Below the pieces are notes generated by a model. That model searched no databases. It saw nothing but the letters and a program-made list of their open reading frames with translations, and was not told where the DNA came from. This document shows positions 54,887 through 60,938 of a stretch of 63,211 nt of DNA, one piece after another. Location of the stretch: IMG/VR virus record IMGVR_UViG_3300047554_000382, positions 1 through 63,211 of that record; one strand, given 5' to 3'. Positions within the stretch are counted from its first letter, which is position 1. Every line of letters starts with the position of its first letter. The stretch comes from a virus. Taxonomy: Duplodnaviria; Caudoviricetes. The position numbers and the translations under genes were made by a program.

Positions 54887-55900
54887 GTGAGTAATCTATT
54901 TAAAAAAGCCGCATGCTTCACGGACATACACTTTGGATTAAAATCCAACAGTTCTGTACACAACCAAGACTGCGAAGACTTTGTAGATTGGTATATTGCA
55001 AAAGCTAAGGAGGAAGGTTGTGACACAGGAATTTTTCTTGGGGATTGGCACCACAATCGTAATAGTCTTAACATCACTACTATGGACTATAGCCTTAGGG
55101 CCTTGGAAAAGCTCGGTAAGGCGTTTGATCAATTTTTCTTTTTCCCTGGCAATCATGATTTATATTACAAAGACAAACGAGACATTCACAGTGTTGAGTT
55201 TGGGAAGTATATTCCTGGTATTACTGTTGTACATCATCCGATTACAGAAGGAGATGTTACACTTTGCCCGTGGCTTGTCGGAGATGAATGGAAGCAAATA
55301 GGTAAGAAAAAGGCCAGATATATATTTGGCCACTTTGAACTTCCGCACTTCTATATGAACGCTATGGTACAAATGCCAGACCACGGCGAAATACAATTAG
55401 ATACATTCGATGGGTACGAGCTAGGATTTAGTGGGCATTTCCATAAACGCCAGCAAAAGAAAAACATGGTGTATATCGGCAATGCCTTTCCGCATAATTA
55501 CGCTGATGCATGGGACGACGACCGTGGCATGATGATTTTAGATTGGGGAGGAACTCCTCAATATCATGCATGGCCAAGTCAACCTACTTTTAGAACTGTT
55601 AAGCTGAGTCAACTAATTGATGAAGCTGACAAAATTATCAAACCTAAACAACATCTAAGAGTTACCTTAGATATCGATATTAGTTTTGAAGAAGCTAGTT
55701 TTATCAAAGAAAAATTTGTAGAAGACTACGACATTAGAGAACTAACTCTAATACCGCAACAAAAAGAAATAGAAATTAACACTGACATTGATGTCAAAGC
55801 ATTTGAGAGTGTTGATCAAATTGTATCTAATCAAATTGTCAACATACAAAGTGATACATTTGATCCAAAGGTGCTACTTTCAATTTATAATAACCTATGA
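54887..55900 (+). CDS. gp47: recombination endonuclease, Mre11/SbcD-like
   Basis: Metallophosphoesterase motifs DIHFG, LGDWH, GNHD, GHFE, SGHFH. Confidence 0.93.
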   Translation: MSNLFKKAACFTDIHFGLKSNSSVHNQDCEDFVDWYIAKAKEEGCDTGIFLGDWHHNRNSLNITTMDYSLRALEKLGKAFDQFFFFPGNHDLYYKDKRDIHSVEFGKYIPGITVVHHPITEGDVTLCPWLVGDEWKQIGKKKARYIFGHFELPHFYMNAMVQMPDHGEIQLDTFDGYELGFSGHFHKRQQKKNMVYIGNAFPHNYADAWDDDRGMMILDWGGTPQYHAWPSQPTFRTVKLSQLIDEADKIIKPKQHLRVTLDIDISFEEASFIKEKFVEDYDIRELTLIPQQKEIEINTDIDVKAFESVDQIVSNQIVNIQSDTFDPKVLLSIYNNL

Positions 55901-57675
55901 TAAAAATTAAGGATTTAACTGTAAAAAACTTTATGAGCGTGGGAAACCAAACTCAAGCTGTTGATTTTGAAAAAGAACAACTTACCCTTGTCTTAGGTGA
56001 AAACTTAGATCAAGGAGGTGATGATTCTGGTTCTCGCAACGGTACAGGTAAAACAACCATAGTAAATGCTCTTAGCTATGCCTTATACGGACAGGCATTA
56101 ACTAATATTAAGAAAGACAATCTTATCAACAAAATTAATGGTAAGAATATGTTAGTGACTCTTAGTTTTGAAAAAGACGGACAAGAGTATCGCATTGAGC
56201 GAGGCAGAAAACCCACTGTGATGAAGTTCTATATCAATGATGAAGAACAAGCATCGGGAGAATCTGATGATAGTCAAGGCGACATGCGTGAGACGCAGAA
56301 GGATCTAGACGACTTGCTGGGCATGAGTCATGAAATGTTTAAAAACATTGTAGCATTGAATACCTACACTGAACCGTTTCTAAGCATGAGGTCAAACGAA
56401 CAGAGAGAAATTATTGAGCAGTTGCTGGGTATTACTCTGTTAAGCGAAAAAGCAGAACTGCTTAAAGAACAGATCAGAGTTACTAAAGAACAAATTCAGC
56501 AGGAAAACGCTGATATTGAAGCGGCTAAAAAATCTAATGACAAAATTCAACAGAGTATCAACGGCTTGATTACAAGGCAAAAGGCATGGTCTAAGCAACA
56601 AGAAGAAGACTGTGAAAAACTTGCAAAAAGCATTATTGAACTCCAGGCTGTTGATATTGAAAAAGAACTAGAACAACACGCTAGGTTAAAAACTTATAAC
56701 GAGTTGTCTGCAAAGATTAAAAGCCTAAACAAAGAAAAGGCTACTTTAGAAACTGCTGTAACACAAGCCGACAAACAGGTTGCAAAATATACTAAAGAAG
56801 TTGAAGAACTTAAAAACAATACGTGTCCATCGTGTAAACAAGGATTACACACCCATACTCACGAAGAAATGACTACGATTGCAGAAAAGAATCTAGCTGA
56901 TGCTAACACATATCTTCAAAGCATCAGTGACAGTTATATCACAGTTATTACTGAATTAGAGTCAATCGGTGACATTAATGGCAGACCTAACACGTATTAC
57001 GAAACACTAGAAGAAGCTCTTAAACATCAAAACAATCTTACAGGCTTAGAGAATGCTCTAGCAGTTCGACAACAAGAAGTTGATCCGTATCAAGAGCAAA
57101 TTGATGAGCTACAACACACTGCTATTCAAGAAATATCCTGGGATAACGTTAACACACTTACCAGTCTAAAAGATCATCAAGAATTCTTACTCAAGTTGTT
57201 GACTAACAAAGATAGCTTTATTCGTAAAAAGATTATTGATCAGAATCTCGCATATCTCAATAACAGACTAACCTATTATTTAGATAAGATGGGCTTACCT
57301 CATCAGGTTGTATTCCAAAACGATCTAACTGTTGAAATTACACAGCTAGGTCAAGATCTCGATTTTGATAACTTATCTCGAGGAGAACGTAACAGATTGA
57401 TCCTAGGATTAAGTTGGGCATTCCGTGATGTGTGGGAAAGCCTATATCAGAACATTAATCTGTTGTTTATCGATGAGTTGATTGATAACGGTTTAGATTC
57501 TAACGGTGTCGAGAACGCACTGAGCGTTCTTAAAAAGATGAGCAGAGAAAGAAACAAAAATGTTTATCTGATCAGCCACAAAGACGAATTGATCGGTAGA
57601 GTTAATAACGTCCTTAAAGTTATTAAAGAAAACGGATTTACCAGTTACTCGACAGATTTAGAATTTATAGAATAA
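55897..57675 (+). CDS. gp46: recombination ATPase, Rad50/SbcC-like
   Basis: KNFMS, NGTGKTT, coiled coil with CPSC zinc hook, LSRGE, FIDE, ISH. Confidence 0.93.
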   Translation: MIKIKDLTVKNFMSVGNQTQAVDFEKEQLTLVLGENLDQGGDDSGSRNGTGKTTIVNALSYALYGQALTNIKKDNLINKINGKNMLVTLSFEKDGQEYRIERGRKPTVMKFYINDEEQASGESDDSQGDMRETQKDLDDLLGMSHEMFKNIVALNTYTEPFLSMRSNEQREIIEQLLGITLLSEKAELLKEQIRVTKEQIQQENADIEAAKKSNDKIQQSINGLITRQKAWSKQQEEDCEKLAKSIIELQAVDIEKELEQHARLKTYNELSAKIKSLNKEKATLETAVTQADKQVAKYTKEVEELKNNTCPSCKQGLHTHTHEEMTTIAEKNLADANTYLQSISDSYITVITELESIGDINGRPNTYYETLEEALKHQNNLTGLENALAVRQQEVDPYQEQIDELQHTAIQEISWDNVNTLTSLKDHQEFLLKLLTNKDSFIRKKIIDQNLAYLNNRLTYYLDKMGLPHQVVFQNDLTVEITQLGQDLDFDNLSRGERNRLILGLSWAFRDVWESLYQNINLLFIDELIDNGLDSNGVENALSVLKKMSRERNKNVYLISHKDELIGRVNNVLKVIKENGFTSYSTDLEFIE

Positions 57676-57941
57676 TGAGCGACATACATGAACAGCTGAT
57701 GACATTGTTTCGAAAATACTTCGAAGCTAATCAAGATTGGGAAATGCACAGGACCCATGCGGCTGGAAAAAGATGTCGTTCATATCTATTAGAAATTAGA
57801 AAAATAGCACATGATAGGCGAATTGAAATACAGGCAATTAGAGAAGAAAAACCAAAATTAAAATCACCAGCTTATAAACAGAAAAAATTACAAGAACTAG
57901 CTCAAAAGAAGAAGGCACAAGACGACCCCGACACTAATTAA
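57675..57941 (+). CDS. small basic protein, Hc1 (histone H1-like) family
   Basis: AAGKRCRSYLLEIRKIAHDRRIEIQ resembles the Hc1 helical hairpin; Lys-rich tail. Confidence 0.5.
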   Translation: MSDIHEQLMTLFRKYFEANQDWEMHRTHAAGKRCRSYLLEIRKIAHDRRIEIQAIREEKPKLKSPAYKQKKLQELAQKKKAQDDPDTN

Positions 57942-57945
57942 ATGC

Positions 57946-58380
57946 ATGTCGTGGACGTATCAAAATAAAATTGTAGAAGAAATACCCGAAGGCTATATCG
58001 GCTTTGTGTATCTCATTACTAATCTACAAACCGGGCAAAAATACATAGGCAAAAAACTAGCACAGTTTAAGAAAACTAAACCACCACTTAAAGGCAAAAA
58101 ACTTAAAAGAAGATCAGTAGTAGAAAGCGATTGGCGCGATTATTACGGTTCATCTGATAGGTTAAACGCAGACGTCCAGACACTAGGCCCGGAAAACTTC
58201 ACAAGAGAAATACTTTATCTTTGCAAATCCAAGGCAGAAATGTCTTACTTAGAGGCAAGAGAACAGTTTGAACGCAGAGTTTTAGAAACTGACGACTATT
58301 ATAATGGTATTATAAACGTCAGAGTAGGCGGATCAAACATACTAAGGCAACGTCTTTTAGAACAAAATCAGGCAAAATAA
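57946..58380 (+). CDS. stand-alone GIY-YIG endonuclease
   Basis: GFVYLITN...KYIGKK, YYGSS, FTREIL, YLEAREQ, YYN; no appended DNA-binding domain. Confidence 0.85.
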   Translation: MSWTYQNKIVEEIPEGYIGFVYLITNLQTGQKYIGKKLAQFKKTKPPLKGKKLKRRSVVESDWRDYYGSSDRLNADVQTLGPENFTREILYLCKSKAEMSYLEAREQFERRVLETDDYYNGIINVRVGGSNILRQRLLEQNQAK

Positions 58381-58825
58381 TGCGGTTTATGGCTAGCGCA
58401 GGCCTAAGTTCGTGCGCTCTATACCTGGTCAAACATGGTCACAGGGACGAAATTCCACGCCGCAGTGGTACTCAGCAACTACCCATTTGGATGATGATCG
58501 CTATCTAAGCCCTGCGATTTTGCTGTTTGAAAAGGATTTTAAAGGCGAAATGAGCAGAGAAAATCTGCACGTTAGTATGTGTGATAGCGTACATTTACTA
58601 ACCGCCGTCGTAATAAGACGTGGCTCGAGGTACCGGACGACCGCCTCTGTAATGCCATAACGCTGTGTGACTTGCCGTACTCGGATAATGCCATCTTTGC
58701 CCGGAAACGGGCTTAGTGTGACCATTAGTATCTGGATAATCTTAAAACTGCTTCGCAGTAATAAATTAAAAAAAGAAAATAAGTTTGAGCGATAGCGAAA
58801 AACTTAGTGAGCGCAAGCTCACTAA
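58381..58825 (+). ncRNA. putative structured non-coding element (large ncRNA and/or ssDNA-structured origin); strand uncertain
   Basis: Longest intergenic gap in the window and GC-richer than its flanks. At least 8 stem-loops, including GCCCG-GAAA-CGGGC (58699-58712) and TTAGTGAGC-GCAA-GCTCACTAA (58804-58825). Confidence 0.55.
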
Positions 58826-58830
58826 CTGAA

Positions 58831-58836
58831 TAAATA
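58831..58836 (+). promoter_or_regulatory. late-promoter box TAAATA
   Basis: TAAATA 21 nt upstream of the ATG at 58858. Confidence 0.55.
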
Positions 58837-58857
58837 AAATATCGAGAGCAAATACAA

Positions 58858-59898
58858 ATGAAAATCTACGAAATTATTTCCGAAGCACCATCATTGCCTC
58901 CTGGTTATACAACTACTCCCGGAGGTATTGCAGTTCCACAATCAGCTACTACACCTACTACAGCTAGTGCTAGTACACCGCCTTATACACCTTCTAACAG
59001 TATACCAAGTAAGAAAGTAGGCATATTCGGAAGAACCGCTCCTTCTAAACCATCAAAAACAACACCTACTAGTACTGGCTCATCTCCCGGTCAGGATATC
59101 GGAAAGTGGGTTAATGAGCGTCAGAAAAAATGGAGAGCTAATAAAACTAGAGCCCAGCGAGTTGAACGAGTCTGGATGGGCAAATACGGATTTTTCTTAA
59201 CATCATTAATGAAGGTTCTAGGAGTTGGTATAGCATTAACTGAGTTATATGTTGACCTCGAAGGACTTGATGAAGATTTTCAAAACAACCAGTTAAACAA
59301 GAAACAAGTAGAATCTGCAAGAGAATTTTTATTTGGTGTGTTCTCGGCACAAATTCTCGTACCTGCGGTTGCTAGACGTATAGCAGGTGCTAAAACAATT
59401 TTATTAATCGTTCGAATCATTAAAAATCTTGCTGGAGCAGCCGCTGGCGGGATTTCAGCAGGCGCTACTATAGCTGCCGCAGTTGCTTCTGAAGCATTCT
59501 TTATTTGGCTTCAAGCATGGTTAGGTAGTGATGCTGGTAAAGATTGGATAGCTAATACTTTCTTAATGGGTATTGTAAAAACAATGGGCAAGATTCCAGA
59601 AGGTGCATGGAGCTCTTTAACAAGCTATTACGAAAACTCCGAAGAAGCTAAAAAAACTAAAAAAGCTGAATTAGCTAAAAAAGACCCCGCCAAAGCCGCA
59701 CAGCGAGATGCAGAAGATCAAGCGGCCGCAGACAGAGAAAAACAAATTGCCGCAAACGAAAAATATATTGGCGGAGTTCGTGTTACCGATATTGAGGGAA
59801 ACTTAATACCCGGTATTGAAAACAATATTAGAGTTAAAGCCGCGATTGAAAGAGATCTAGCCGCAGGTAAGCCAAATCCGTTAGATGCTTTAAAGTAA
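58858..59898 (+). CDS. putative internal virion/ejected protein with hydrophobic helices
   Basis: N-terminal MKIYEIISE, Pro/Thr/Ser linker, several hydrophobic Ala/Gly-rich helices; late promoter upstream. Confidence 0.55.
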   Translation: MKIYEIISEAPSLPPGYTTTPGGIAVPQSATTPTTASASTPPYTPSNSIPSKKVGIFGRTAPSKPSKTTPTSTGSSPGQDIGKWVNERQKKWRANKTRAQRVERVWMGKYGFFLTSLMKVLGVGIALTELYVDLEGLDEDFQNNQLNKKQVESAREFLFGVFSAQILVPAVARRIAGAKTILLIVRIIKNLAGAAAGGISAGATIAAAVASEAFFIWLQAWLGSDAGKDWIANTFLMGIVKTMGKIPEGAWSSLTSYYENSEEAKKTKKAELAKKDPAKAAQRDAEDQAAADREKQIAANEKYIGGVRVTDIEGNLIPGIENNIRVKAAIERDLAAGKPNPLDALK

Positions 59899-60116: not shown

Positions 60117-60938
60117 TTATACGAAAAAATTTGATTGATCCATGGTTATTTGGATATCATCAGCTGTGCCACAGCTAGCACAATTTACATGCTGTTTTGG
60201 AATACTCCAAACTTCCTTGTTAGATTCTAGCTTGTCTTTGATCTGTTGATACACTTCACGATCAGCATTCTGTAACCATTCTCTTATCATATTCTTATCA
60301 GTGACTTGCTCACCGGGGATTTGAACAGCTTCAATGGTCATTAGATATAGTTCTAATTGTAGTTCAGCTAACTGAGCGTAGATTTGATCCATCTGCGTTT
60401 GCTTCTGATCGTCAGGCAACTCAATAGTCTGATACAACATCTTTTGTAGTTTAAAATTTTCTGTGGCTACTGCTGTCATTTCTTCGTAGCTTAGAGGACG
60501 GATTTTTAAAGATAACTCACTGTTAACCTGTACCTGTGTGCTAAAGGTTAGATCTTTAAAATAGTCTAATAAATTTGAAAGATTGATTTCATATTGATTT
60601 TCTTCGCCGCAGTTTTTACAGGCCTGCTCAATGGTCATTTTAGGACCAAATGTAGCGATCCTGATAGCTATCATTAGTGTGTCGATGTCTAAACTAGGGA
60701 CTTTTTTAGCATCAGAAATATACGGACAACAGCTTTCAACAACTTTAGTTACAGCTTCACCGTTGAATAAAGCGTCGGGTGTTTTAAAAATAATCTCATC
60801 CATGCCGGTCATTGCGAAAATGGGCACGTTGTTATAGTCACCTGCGAGCACACCGCGCTCGTAGAATAGACCCTTACTAGGTAAGCTAACAGAAATTTTT
60901 GGCTGTCTAAAATACTTCTGTAATGGATTATTTGCCAT
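60117..60938 (-). CDS. gp26: baseplate hub assembly chaperone, gp26-like
   Basis: LPSKG, MTGMDE, DIDTLMIAIRIATFG, two CxxC pairs, IRPLSY, and C-terminal NFF. Confidence 0.75.
   Translation of the reverse strand: MANNPLQKYFRQPKISVSLPSKGLFYERGVLAGDYNNVPIFAMTGMDEIIFKTPDALFNGEAVTKVVESCCPYISDAKKVPSLDIDTLMIAIRIATFGPKMTIEQACKNCGEENQYEINLSNLLDYFKDLTFSTQVQVNSELSLKIRPLSYEEMTAVATENFKLQKMLYQTIELPDDQKQTQMDQIYAQLAELQLELYLMTIEAVQIPGEQVTDKNMIREWLQNADREVYQQIKDKLESNKEVWSIPKQHVNCASCGTADDIQITMDQSNFFV

What the first reader, a model, noticed from the sequence alone, without database searches (positions are those of the whole stretch)
57946..58760. Candidate large structured ncRNA starting right after a minimal GIY-YIG nuclease: possible nuclease-RNA system
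Seen: in an otherwise gap-free genome, about 475 nt without a credible gene begin at the nuclease stop, are GC-richer, and fold into consecutive helices. These are AGCGCA/TGCGCT (58395-58418), CCTG/CAGG, CCAC/GTGG, GCAGA/TCTGC (58554-58568), GTTAGTA/TACTAAC (58571-58602), CGTC/GACG (58606-58620), nested TGGC-GAGG-CGG/CCG-CCTC-GCCA (58621-58657) and GCCCG-GAAA-CGGGC (58699-58712). GGATAAT occurs twice. I see no tRNA, tmRNA, RNase P or group I/II signatures. The 144-aa nuclease has a basic loop but no separate DNA-recognition domain. Inference: an undescribed RNA that may scaffold, guide or inhibit the nuclease (by analogy to OMEGA/HEARO or type III antitoxin RNAs), or an independent phage ncRNA.
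Basis: partly seen in the sequence, partly recalled or inferred. Interest (0 to 1): 0.8.

Follow-up and report, generated by a model that had tools for sequence, protein, structure and literature searches.

The report
Twin-box knotted RNA beside phage nuclease
The gene-free gap behind a small nuclease gene of this freshwater T4-like phage encodes a real, intricately knotted RNA of about 445 bases whose first third was catalogued in 2010, and the same RNA also sits in mobile islands of Polynucleobacter chromosomes that have no such nuclease, so it probably works on its own.

Summary
Window 58381-58826 (+) is a non-coding, structured RNA gene of about 445 nt.

- **Known part:** its first 138 nt (58391-58528) match Rfam RF01718, Polynucleobacter-1, at 97 bits against a cut-off of 37.
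- **New part:** the remaining ~300 nt are conserved in over 60 viral contigs and match no Rfam family.
- **Structure:** 99 tested pairs are 85.6% paired (36-46% when slid), with three pseudoknots.
- **Twin boxes:** two 7-nt boxes (GGAUAAU at 58683-58689 and 58734-58740) are identical in 51 of 51 distinct sequences, despite at least 20 changes of state on the tree.
- **Linkage in phages:** a 144-aa GIY-YIG gene lies just upstream in 63 of 64 informative loci.
- **Why the two are probably not partners:**
  - All these loci come from one syntenic phage lineage.
  - The nuclease family occurs widely without the RNA.
  - The RNA occurs without the nuclease in integrase-bearing islands in all 12 Polynucleobacter chromosome loci that I fetched.

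My best reading is an autonomous mobile-element RNA that presents one word twice to an unknown reader. The nuclease is a neighbour. Earlier runs of this scan reached the same reading on other genomes.

The parts
57946..58380 (+). 144-aa single-domain GIY-YIG protein gene (SegE-type). It is a conserved neighbour of the RNA and probably shares its transcript. It is not shown to be a partner.
   Evidence: PF19835 at 126.6 bits, cut-off 25. phrog_447 at 137.6 bits. AF2 pLDDT 87.5. The top PDB folds are the I-TevI catalytic domain, but weakly (E 0.087). Invariant residues include Y22, Y33, R87, E103, E106 and N120 in 34 sequences.
58381..58826 (+). Full-length structured non-coding RNA, about 445 nt (an extended form of Polynucleobacter-1).
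   Evidence: Conserved end to end in 46-51 distinct relatives. Of 99 pairs, 85.6% are paired against 36-46% when slid; 66 pairs change on both sides; 0 of 500 shuffles reach this.
58381..58386 (+). Leader directly after the stop codon. It pairs with the loop of the third hairpin (58459-58464), forming pseudoknot 0.
   Evidence: Own leader-loop complementarity averages 4.2 bp against 3.3 bp for mismatched pairs; 0 of 2000 permutations reach it. The fixed-register count does not capture it (29% paired).
58391..58528 (+). 5' domain, which is Rfam RF01718 (Polynucleobacter-1).
   Evidence: 97 bits against a gathering score of 37; model positions 1-141 of 141; E = 1.1e-19.
58529..58826 (+). 3' domain, conserved but in no Rfam family.
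   Evidence: No relevant Rfam match even at E up to 10. A pattern built on it recovers 55 of 120 loci.
58585..58590 (+). Loop strand of pseudoknot 1. It pairs with 58660-58665.
   Evidence: 6 pairs, 100% paired, all 6 with changes on both sides.
58608..58611 (+). 5' strand of pseudoknot 2. It pairs with 58637-58640, in the loop of the CGG/CCG hairpin.
   Evidence: 98.3% paired; 3 of 4 pairs change on both sides. By eye: GUCAG/CUGAC, GUCGA/UCGAC, GUCAU/AUGAC.
58666..58690 (+). Repeat module R1 (GUGUGAC-N-ACUC-box). Box 1 is GGAUAAU at 58683-58689.
58717..58741 (+). Repeat module R2 (GUGUGAC-N-AUCU-box). Box 2 is GGAUAAU at 58734-58740.
   Evidence: Identical to box 1 in 51 of 51 distinct sequences. 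There are 8 variants and at least 20 changes of state on the tree. At the first box position, 7 of 7 independent pairs change in step, p = 0.016.
58695..58716 (+). Hairpin between the two modules (GAAA loop in the window).
   Evidence: Compensatory variants are seen by eye in the alignment: CUUUGCCC/GGGCAAAG, CUUAGCCC/GGGCUAAG, UUCGCCC/GGGCGAAG. Only 66% paired in the fixed-register count.
58781..58805 (+). Hairpin with the conserved UGAGCG-NNA-GCGAA box (a small GC / GNRA-type cap flanked by G and A).
   Evidence: Cap pairs are 98.9% paired with changes on both sides (helix 22). The box is also kept in the chromosomal copies.
58804..58825 (+). Terminal 9-bp hairpin with a GCAA loop; the presumed 3' end of the RNA.
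   Evidence: 98.1% paired; 6 of 7 counted pairs change on both sides (helix 23).
58829..58836 (+). AATAAATA, a word like the T4 late promoter (the consensus TATAAATA is recalled, not from a call). It lies ahead of the next gene (58858-59898).
   Evidence: ATAAATA follows the RNA in 7 of 10 loci that have a + strand gene next, and in 2 of 20 loci that do not. This is suggestive only.

Best explanation
Window 58381-58826 (+) is the gene of a large, multiply pseudoknotted non-coding RNA. It is the full-length form of the Rfam family Polynucleobacter-1, whose model covers only its first 138 nt.

Shown:
- It is non-coding, and its fold is kept by compensatory change.
- The fold starts 1-5 nt after the stop codon of the GIY-YIG gene and ends in a GNRA-capped hairpin.
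- The same RNA family occurs in two unrelated kinds of mobile element: one lineage of freshwater T4-like phages, and integrase-bearing islands of Polynucleobacter chromosomes. The two contexts share no flanking protein.

Inferred:
- In the phage, the RNA is made as the tail of the early or middle transcript that also carries the nuclease gene. The next gene has its own late-type promoter.
- It acts as an autonomous RNA. The knotted body holds two single-stranded copies of one 7-nt word (twin boxes) in a fixed geometry.
- One and the same partner reads that word twice. The partner could be a dimeric protein, or a nucleic acid with a repeated complement.
- The role lies in mobile-element or host-conflict biology.

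The small GIY-YIG protein is a conserved neighbour from a widespread T4-like phage family. It is not the RNA's dedicated partner.
For: - **Rfam:** RF01718 at 97 bits, full model.
- **Non-coding:** one conserved block is read in three frames in relatives.
- **Structure:** 85.6% of 4357 cells are paired, against 36-46% when slid. 66 of 99 pairs change on both sides. The covariation score is 0.385 against 0.06-0.10. 0 of 500 shuffles reach this. Nine helices pass a strict compensatory filter.
- **Leader pseudoknot:** 0 of 2000 permutations reach the observed complementarity.
- **Twin boxes:** identical in 51 of 51 sequences, with at least 20 changes of state.
- **RNA without the nuclease:**
  - RF01718 scores above its cut-off in 17 of 151 Polynucleobacter genomes.
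  - In all 12 chromosomal loci I fetched, the flanks are DUF6641 and a 188-aa integrase, with no GIY-YIG or gp46.
  - Those copies keep the 5' domain, a twin-box arrangement, the UGAGCG..GCGAA box and the terminal hairpin.
  - Viral contig L035 has the RNA but no GIY-YIG in its 19.8 kb.
- **Nuclease without the RNA:** the Melnitz phages, and S-SRM01, P-HM1, phiM12 and Moby. The family is matched in 690 phage records.
- **Downstream gene varies:** 15 clusters among the loci. A late-promoter-like word precedes it when it lies on the + strand.
Against: - Within the phage lineage the nuclease-RNA junction is very tight and almost never broken: 63 of 64 informative loci. The fold abuts the stop codon. 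A functional tie is therefore not excluded.
- No transcript ends were measured. The only RNA-library evidence is contigs of relatives over 58294-58405 and 58442-58595 in one riverine metatranscriptome, and these could be DNA carry-over.
No complementary partner was found within the loci.
- The middle of the chromosomal RNAs is diverged. Homology there rests on nhmmer E-values of 1e-5 to 1e-3 and on shared architecture seen by eye. The twin boxes are exact in only 7 of the 12 chromosomal copies.
Confidence: 0.6

Rival explanations
1. Nuclease-RNA particle. The RNA binds the catalytic-domain-only GIY-YIG protein and guides, scaffolds or inhibits it.
For: - A GIY-YIG homologue lies directly upstream in 53 of 56 loci, with a gap of -7 to +44 nt.
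- The protein is kept intact at 52-93% identity, similar to the core protein gp46.
- It has no DNA-binding domain.
- The fold begins at its stop codon.
- The twin boxes are a fast-changing, specificity-like element.
- Single-domain GIY-YIG proteins flanked by their own cognate hairpin repeats have a precedent in Ssn (PMC11893778; I read the abstract, section 10 and passages).
Against: - All linked loci belong to one syntenic lineage, gp47-gp46-...-GIY-RNA-...-baseplate hub. The linkage may therefore be inheritance.
- The RNA occurs without the nuclease in 12 chromosomal loci and in L035.
- The nuclease occurs without the RNA in Melnitz and four other phages.
- In L042 and L050 an extra ORF separates the two.
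- Box variants changed at least 20 times while the protein stayed conserved.
- Ssn does not bind or cut RNA (PMC11893778, passage in section 8).
Confidence: 0.12
2. Decoy or antidote RNA. The phage copy mimics an RNA of the host's mobile island, or the reverse. It would soak up or neutralise a factor of that element, as phage pseudo-ToxI does for ToxN (that precedent is recalled, not read here). The twin boxes would be the sites the factor recognises.
For: - The RNA is the only thing shared between the phages and the integrase-bearing islands of their likely host genus.
- The boxes change fast and in step, as expected in an arms race.
- Its position at the end of an early or middle transcription unit would give early expression (inferred).
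Against: - No toxin or endoribonuclease family was found beside it in either context.
- The box words of phage copies (NNAUNAN) and chromosomal copies (for example AGCGAAAG) differ, so mimicry of these particular islands is not evident.
- There are only two partial repeats, not a tandem array.
Confidence: 0.1
3. Replication-origin element. The RNA is a structured pre-primer, or forms an R-loop, that starts DNA synthesis, in the manner of ColE1 RNA II or the T4 origin at uvsY (both recalled).
For: - It lies at the junction of divergent early and late clusters, next to the baseplate-hub gene. T4 oriF lies in a similar place (recalled).
- An A-rich tract and AT-rich DNA sit at its 3' end.
- The islands carry a clamp-loader-like AAA ATPase nearby.
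Against: - Nothing measured bears on replication.
- Intricate pseudoknots and twin boxes are not features of known phage R-loop origins (recalled).
- GC skew around it shows no turn.
Confidence: 0.08
4. Cis-regulatory leader or riboswitch of the downstream gene. This is the tentative label in Weinberg et al. 2010, where the table row reads RNA 'y', cis-regulatory 'y', switch '?'.
For: The table row in PMC2864571 (a passage seen). The 5' domain ends in a conserved UGUUUGAAAAGGA that looks like a ribosome-binding site.
Against: - About 300 nt of further conserved RNA follow, not a start codon.
- The next gene differs among loci, falling into 15 clusters, and is often on the other strand.
- A late-promoter-like word lies between the RNA and the next gene.
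Confidence: 0.03
5. DNA-level element. The covarying structure would be single-stranded DNA, or the twin boxes would be recombination or nuclease sites used by the neighbouring DNA enzymes.
For: Identical short cores in two sites are what site-specific recombination needs (recalled). DNA enzymes are neighbours in both contexts.
Against: - GNRA-type loops and G-U pairs lie on the + strand only, and the pseudoknots are long-range, which points to RNA.
- The boxes are direct repeats 51 nt apart.
- No copy of the module occurs elsewhere in the 63-kb window or, for the boxes, at a consistent place in the islands.
Confidence: 0.04

Closest known systems
Polynucleobacter-1 RNA motif (Rfam RF01718; Weinberg et al. 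2010, PMC2864571, table row seen)
   Same: The 5' domain 58391-58528 is a full-length, high-scoring member (97 bits). The habitat label is the same: Burkholderiales, fresh water/estuary.
   Different: The Rfam model covers 141 positions. Here it is only the first third of a 445-nt RNA, with two further pseudoknots, twin boxes and a terminal hairpin. It is not a 5' leader, and it is carried by phages and chromosomal islands.
Large 'ornate' RNAs GOLLD, ROOL and OLE (PMC12286853, listing and start of abstract seen)
   Same: Large size (over 400 nt), intricate conserved fold, occurrence in phages and mobile elements, and unknown biochemical role.
   Different: No match to their Rfam models. It is smaller. 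Self-assembly is untested. Twin boxes are not a described feature of those RNAs, as far as I recall.
RNA-guided nucleases of mobile elements (HEARO/OMEGA: IscB, TnpB; review PMC13565253, listing only) and IS110 bridge RNAs (recalled)
   Same: A structured RNA of a few hundred nt sits beside a compact DNA enzyme and carries a short, fast-changing sequence element. Like a bridge RNA, it has two such elements.
   Different: The enzyme is GIY-YIG (in phages) or a small tyrosine recombinase (in islands), not RuvC/HNH or DEDD. Co-occurrence is not obligate. No target complementary to the boxes was found. The two boxes are identical rather than different.
Ssn single-domain GIY-YIG ssDNA nucleases with flanking NTS hairpin repeats (PMC11893778)
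   Same: A GIY-YIG protein with no DNA-binding domain, and a structured repeat beside its gene.
   Different: Ssn belongs to another GIY-YIG subfamily (cd10448; 94 aa). Its sites are short DNA hairpins dispersed in hundreds of copies, and it does not act on RNA. Here there is one 445-nt RNA, and the module occurs nowhere else in the window.
T4 Seg free-standing GIY-YIG homing endonucleases, for example SegB in the tRNA gene cluster (recalled)
   Same: The same catalytic domain family (PF19835). A free-standing phage gene lies beside an RNA gene.
   Different: It lacks the C-terminal DNA-binding part of Seg proteins. It is as conserved as core genes and almost never missing in this lineage, unlike sporadic homing genes.

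Membership tests
Rfam RF01718 Polynucleobacter-1 | Covariance-model score at or above the gathering score (37 bits) over the whole model | tested here: met
   97 bits, model positions 1-141 of 141, at 58391-58528 +.
Rfam RF01718 Polynucleobacter-1 | Model helices kept by compensatory change in relatives | tested here: met
   Helices 3, 4, 6, 8 and 10 are 99-100% paired. 4, 1, 2, 3 and 4 of their pairs respectively change on both sides.
Rfam RF01718 Polynucleobacter-1 | Tentative cis-regulatory placement in a 5' UTR (Weinberg 2010 table: 'y') | tested here: not met
   300 nt of further conserved RNA follow. The downstream gene is not conserved.
GIY-YIG nuclease, SegE-type domain (PF19835; phrog_447) | Profile match above the curated cut-off | tested here: met
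   PF19835 at 126.6 bits against 25, residues 3-123. phrog_447 E = 5.5e-40.
GIY-YIG nuclease, SegE-type domain (PF19835; phrog_447) | Catalytic Tyr-Tyr-Arg-Glu-Asn set conserved (the assignment to I-TevI residues is recalled) | tested here: met
   Y22, Y33, R87, E103/E106 and N120 are invariant in 34 sequences.
GIY-YIG nuclease, SegE-type domain (PF19835; phrog_447) | GIY-YIG fold | tested here: inconclusive
   The model has pLDDT 87.5. The top three PDB matches are the I-TevI catalytic domain, but E is 0.087-0.44 and TM is 0.50-0.65 on the target. phmmer against PDB sequences found nothing.
Seg / I-TevI-type homing endonuclease (two-domain) | C-terminal DNA-binding domain joined by a linker | tested here: not met
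   144 aa in all. Only about 20 residues (one helix, 131-143) follow the catalytic domain.
OMEGA/HEARO-type RNA-guided nuclease system | Obligate co-occurrence of nuclease gene and RNA | tested here: not met
   The RNA occurs without the nuclease in 12 chromosomal loci and in L035. The nuclease occurs without the RNA in Melnitz and four other phages.
OMEGA/HEARO-type RNA-guided nuclease system | Variable guide segment complementary to a target | tested here: inconclusive
   The twin boxes vary (8 variants). No complementary site recurs at a consistent place within up to about 15 kb of the loci. Whole phage and host genomes were not searched.
Type III toxin-antitoxin RNA (ToxI-like) | Tandem array of near-identical repeats next to an endoribonuclease toxin gene | tested here: not met
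   Only two partial modules lie inside a unique 445-nt fold. No toxin family appears among the neighbours.
GOLLD / ROOL / OLE ornate RNAs | Match to the family's covariance model | tested here: not met
   Only RF01718 was reported in the window, and nothing relevant at E up to 10.
GOLLD / ROOL / OLE ornate RNAs | Homo-oligomeric RNA-only assembly | not testable with these tools
   Needs native gels, SEC-MALS or cryo-EM.

The most novel reading that the evidence does not exclude
The RNA would be a two-site reader that supplies nucleic-acid recognition to catalytic-domain-only DNA enzymes. In phages it sits behind a GIY-YIG nuclease with no DNA-binding domain. In Polynucleobacter islands it sits 0.3-1.2 kb ahead of a 188-aa tyrosine recombinase that is little more than the catalytic domain. 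Its two identical, fast-changing boxes would hold two copies of one short DNA (or RNA) word together for cutting or strand exchange. That would be a bridge-RNA-like principle in enzyme families not known to use RNA.
Probability: 0.07. Interest if true: 0.95.

Novelty: new variant of a known kind. Interest (0 to 1): 0.58.

Why it matters
Polynucleobacter-1 has been listed since 2010 as a 141-position motif of unknown function, tentatively cis-regulatory. Here it turns out to be only the head of an RNA of 445-560 nt with several pseudoknots. That RNA is carried by abundant freshwater T4-like phages and by integrative islands of Polynucleobacter, a common lake bacterium.

This places it with the few large, ornate, unexplained RNAs of phages and mobile elements. 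It also offers a concrete handle for experiments. One 7-nt word is displayed twice, changes often and always in step, so it can be mutated singly or in step to find its reader.

The work also corrects two labels. The RNA is not a 5' leader. The neighbouring 'NAD synthetase' proteins of T4-like phages are small GIY-YIG proteins.

Tried and rejected
- **Small ORFs in the gap** (36-82 aa). Rejected because relatives read the same conserved block in three frames.
- **Rfam at E up to 10 on 57600-59100.** Apart from RF01718, the only hits were chance-level (Spy490380c, mir-374, sR5, U4).
- **tRNA/tmRNA scan.** Nothing found.
- **Promoter and terminator scan.** No more sites than in shuffles. The one terminator-like site is the terminal hairpin read on the - strand.
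- **A third, complementary partner for the twin boxes.** No column of the RNA pairs with them. No reverse complement recurs at a consistent place in the phage loci or the chromosomal loci.
- **Dispersed copies of the module in the window.** None beyond the two. The shorter word occurs at chance level.
Replaced by pseudoknot 2.
- **Fixed-register count of the leader pseudoknot.** It failed (29% paired). Support comes only from the register-free permutation test.
- **Read laying.**
  - Stretches without RNA-run cover tell nothing.
  - X19 and X20 are probably DNA.
  - The joint 58664 to 58730 in one DNA contig (side 29) is unverified.
- **phmmer of the nuclease against PDB sequences.** No hit.
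- **Foldseek.** No match at E <= 0.001.
- **Shared flanking proteins between the phage and chromosomal contexts.** None.
- **PADLOC and PHROGs on island proteins and inserted ORFs.** No informative names beyond integrase and a clamp-loader-like ATPase.
- **Literature.**
  - 'Polynucleobacter-1' occurs in 1 paper of the library.
  - I read only listings and abstract starts of the hits for 'GIY-YIG' with 'structured RNA' and 'phage' (8 papers) and with 'RNA-guided' (30 papers); in those none appeared to describe this RNA.
  - 'phrog_447' gave 0 papers.
- **Not used:** own covariance model, the search for homologous proteins, complex prediction (it takes no RNA), and the metagenome-contig scan.
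Full report
**Setting.** The window is a 63-kb fragment of an uncultured virus record. The genes around the finding mark it as T4-like.
- A calcineurin-type phosphoesterase (gp47-like) and a Rad50-like ATPase (gp46-like) lie at 54887-57675.
- A baseplate-hub protein is encoded on the other strand at 60117-60938.
- The nearest named phages are the Methylophilales phages Melnitz (Kyanoviridae).

**The observation.**
- 58381-58857 contains only short ORFs.
- It is richer in G+C than its flanks (0.445-0.465 against 0.33-0.40).
- It folds better than shuffled sequence (z = -2.68).
- Infernal against Rfam 15 gives one hit in the whole window: RF01718, Polynucleobacter-1, at 58391-58528 on the + strand. 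It scores 97 bits against a gathering score of 37 and covers the model end to end.
- Nothing in Rfam matches the remaining 300 nt, even at E up to 10.
- No tRNA or tmRNA is present.

**Relatives.**
About 60 of them carry the motif.
- No conserved ORF follows the motif in these contigs. One conserved nucleotide block is read as ...RYRTTASV......ELEVPDNRLCNAL... or ...ARGTGQPPL... in different contigs, so it is non-coding.
- Alignments show conservation from the nuclease stop codon to a terminal hairpin.
- A pattern from the 3' domain recovers 55 of 120 loci.

**Structure.** I wrote a structure of 99 pairs in 23 helices and counted it on 46 distinct sequences.

| Measure | Observed | Controls (3' partners slid by 1-3 columns) |
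|---|---|---|
| Cells paired | 85.6% | 36-46% |
| Pairs with change on both sides | 66 of 99 | 26-37 |
| Covariation score | 0.385 | 0.06-0.10 |

In addition, 0 of 500 shuffles reached the observed values.

- A separate strict filter on 51 sequences leaves nine helices carried by compensatory double changes.
- Two of those nine are long-range pseudoknots:
  - 58585-58590 with 58660-58665 (100% paired, all six pairs compensatory).
  - 58607-58611 with 58637-58641.
- A third pseudoknot joins the leader right after the stop codon (58381-58386) to the loop of the third hairpin.
  - It shifts register among sequences and fails the fixed count (29%).
  - A register-free test gives 4.2 bp for own pairs against 3.3 bp for mismatched pairs, with 0 of 2000 permutations as high.
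- Mutual information is dominated by Watson-Crick pairs.
- GNRA-type loops, and G-U pairs on the + strand, point to RNA made from the + strand.

**Twin boxes.** Two modules, GUGUGAC-N-ACUC-box (58666-58690) and GUGUGAC-N-AUCU-box (58717-58741), carry the same 7-nt word.
- The word is identical in both boxes in 51 of 51 distinct sequences, although eight variants exist.
- On a tree built without the box columns, the word changed at least 20 times.
- Its first position changed at least 13 times. All 7 independent, well-supported contrasts moved in step (p = 0.016).
- The conserved ACUC/AUCU difference beside the boxes argues against simple homogenisation.
- No complementary partner exists in the RNA or at a consistent place in the loci.
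- The module occurs nowhere else in the window.

**The nuclease.** The 144-aa protein is a single SegE-type GIY-YIG domain.
- PF19835 scores 126.6 bits, and phrog_447 also matches.
- The catalytic-type residues are invariant in 34 sequences.
- The model is confident (pLDDT 87.5). Its best, though weak, structural matches are the I-TevI catalytic domain.

A homologue at 52-93% identity ends -7 to +44 nt from the approximate RNA start in 53 of 56 loci. Of the three exceptions:
- Two (L042 and L050) have an extra ORF of unknown family inserted between the nuclease gene and the RNA.
- One (L035) has no homologue in its whole 19.8-kb record.

**Is the linkage functional?** All linked loci share one gene order: gp47, gp46, small genes, GIY-YIG, RNA, zero to two variable genes, then a 71-aa gene and the baseplate hub on the other strand. 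So they are one lineage, and the nuclease diverges about as much as gp46.

Outside this lineage the protein family is common, matched in 690 phage records and often labelled 'NAD synthetase'. There it stands without such an RNA.
- Melnitz has a 64%-identical copy and no RNA by Rfam or nhmmer.
- S-SRM01, P-HM1, phiM12 and Moby have 0-206 nt behind the gene.

**The RNA in bacterial chromosomes.**
- RF01718 scores above its cut-off in 17 of 151 sampled Polynucleobacter genomes, many on megabase contigs.
- In a 151-genome sample of the family, the only genomes above the cut-off (2 of 151) carry handles already seen in the genus search.
- I fetched 12 loci from 11 genomes. The neighbours are the same in nearly all:

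| Neighbour | Present in |
|---|---|
| DUF6641 protein, divergently upstream | 12 of 12 loci |
| 188-aa Phage_integrase-family protein, 0.8-1.8 kb from the RNA start | 12 of 12 loci |
| Clamp-loader-like AAA ATPase | 11 of 12 loci |
| 424-aa integrase | 9 loci |

- There is no GIY-YIG, no gp46, and no protein shared with the phage context.
- These copies are about 560 nt long. They keep the 5' domain, the UGAGCG..GCGAA box, the terminal hairpin and a twin-box arrangement. The boxes take the form ACUC-N8 and AUCU-N8 and are exact in 7 of 12.
- The middle is diverged. Homology there rests on weak nhmmer matches and on architecture.
- The one genome-contig scan with the 3' pattern found only metagenome-assembled contigs that look like phage.

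**Expression.**
- One riverine metatranscriptome holds contigs of relatives over 58294-58405, which bridges the stop codon into the RNA, and over 58442-58595.
- This is weak evidence, because DNA carry-over is not excluded and contigs show no ends.
- A late-promoter-like ATAAATA follows the RNA in 7 of 10 loci with a + strand gene next, and in 2 of 20 without. This fits a transcription unit that ends with the RNA.

**Reading.** The RNA is an autonomous, mobile-element-borne large RNA. The nuclease is a conserved neighbour and probably shares its transcript. The rival readings are a nuclease-RNA particle, a decoy, an origin primer, a cis leader and a DNA-level site. They are weighed in their own sections. 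The boldest reading still open is that the RNA gives sequence recognition to domain-only DNA enzymes in both contexts.

**Literature.** In the searchable library, 'Polynucleobacter-1' occurs only in Weinberg et al. 2010. I saw its table row there; the supplements were closed. In the listings and abstract starts that I read for the GIY-YIG searches, no paper appeared to describe this RNA. Earlier notes of this scan describe the same RNA family on other genomes with the same main reading. None that I found mentions the chromosomal islands.

Noticed in passing
L154 and L155, compared with L156-L165 (Polynucleobacter chromosomes): The three-gene block beside the 188-aa integrase (a ~280-aa protein, a ~260-aa protein and the AAA ATPase) lies in the opposite orientation in two loci. 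This hints at an invertible segment served by the small recombinase.
   Followed up: no
G115:C1, near 401229 and 419563 (L155, L156): One chromosome carries two copies of the DUF6641-RNA-integrase unit 18 kb apart on the same strand. G024 also has two copies, far apart.
   Followed up: partly
L125, L128, L134, L135 (contigs of 148 and 183 kb in a MAG labelled Haliscomenobacter): These look like T4-like phage DNA binned into a bacterial MAG. They have the GIY-YIG gene, the 3'-domain pattern and the baseplate genes, but no RF01718 hit at the gathering score. Their 5' domain is presumably divergent.
   Followed up: partly
L042:243-926 (-), L050:532-1533 (-); also L007: In a few relatives an extra ORF (228 or 334 aa, with no Pfam or PHROG family) is inserted between the nuclease gene and the RNA. 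In L007 the gap is about 800 nt wider.
   Followed up: partly
window 58858-59898 and the same slot in relatives: The slot just downstream of the RNA is variable. It holds a 346-aa protein of no known family here, other unrelated genes elsewhere, or nothing. The space between the RNA and the integrase is variable in the chromosomal islands too.
   Followed up: partly
window 58614 and 58713: These two positions covary by identity (A-A 27, U-U 12, G-G 7, U-A 5). One lies in a joining strand and the other in the hairpin between the boxes. This may be a tertiary contact.
   Followed up: no
window 57675-57941: An 88-aa, very basic protein lies between gp46 and the nuclease. It has a sub-threshold match to histone-like Hc1 (19.8 bits against a cut-off of 23.5) and is found in only 14 of 73 loci.
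   Followed up: no
phage records (for example NC_027204, NC_048802, NC_015280): Small GIY-YIG proteins of phrog_447 are widely labelled 'NAD synthetase'. Their own notes and Pfam point to a Seg-type GIY-YIG domain, so the label looks like an annotation error that has spread.
   Followed up: partly
window 58664 to 58730: One contig of DNA run X1 joins these two places, skipping 65 nt that hold module R1 and the hairpin. It may be a natural single-module variant or a mis-laid relative (shorter side 29 letters).
   Followed up: no
L035 (viral contig, 19.8 kb): This is a copy of the RNA with matched boxes but no GIY-YIG. Its neighbours are WYL_2 and HTH_39 proteins upstream, and a peptidase S11 and an Fe-S biosynthesis protein downstream. 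That makes it a third genomic context.
   Followed up: partly
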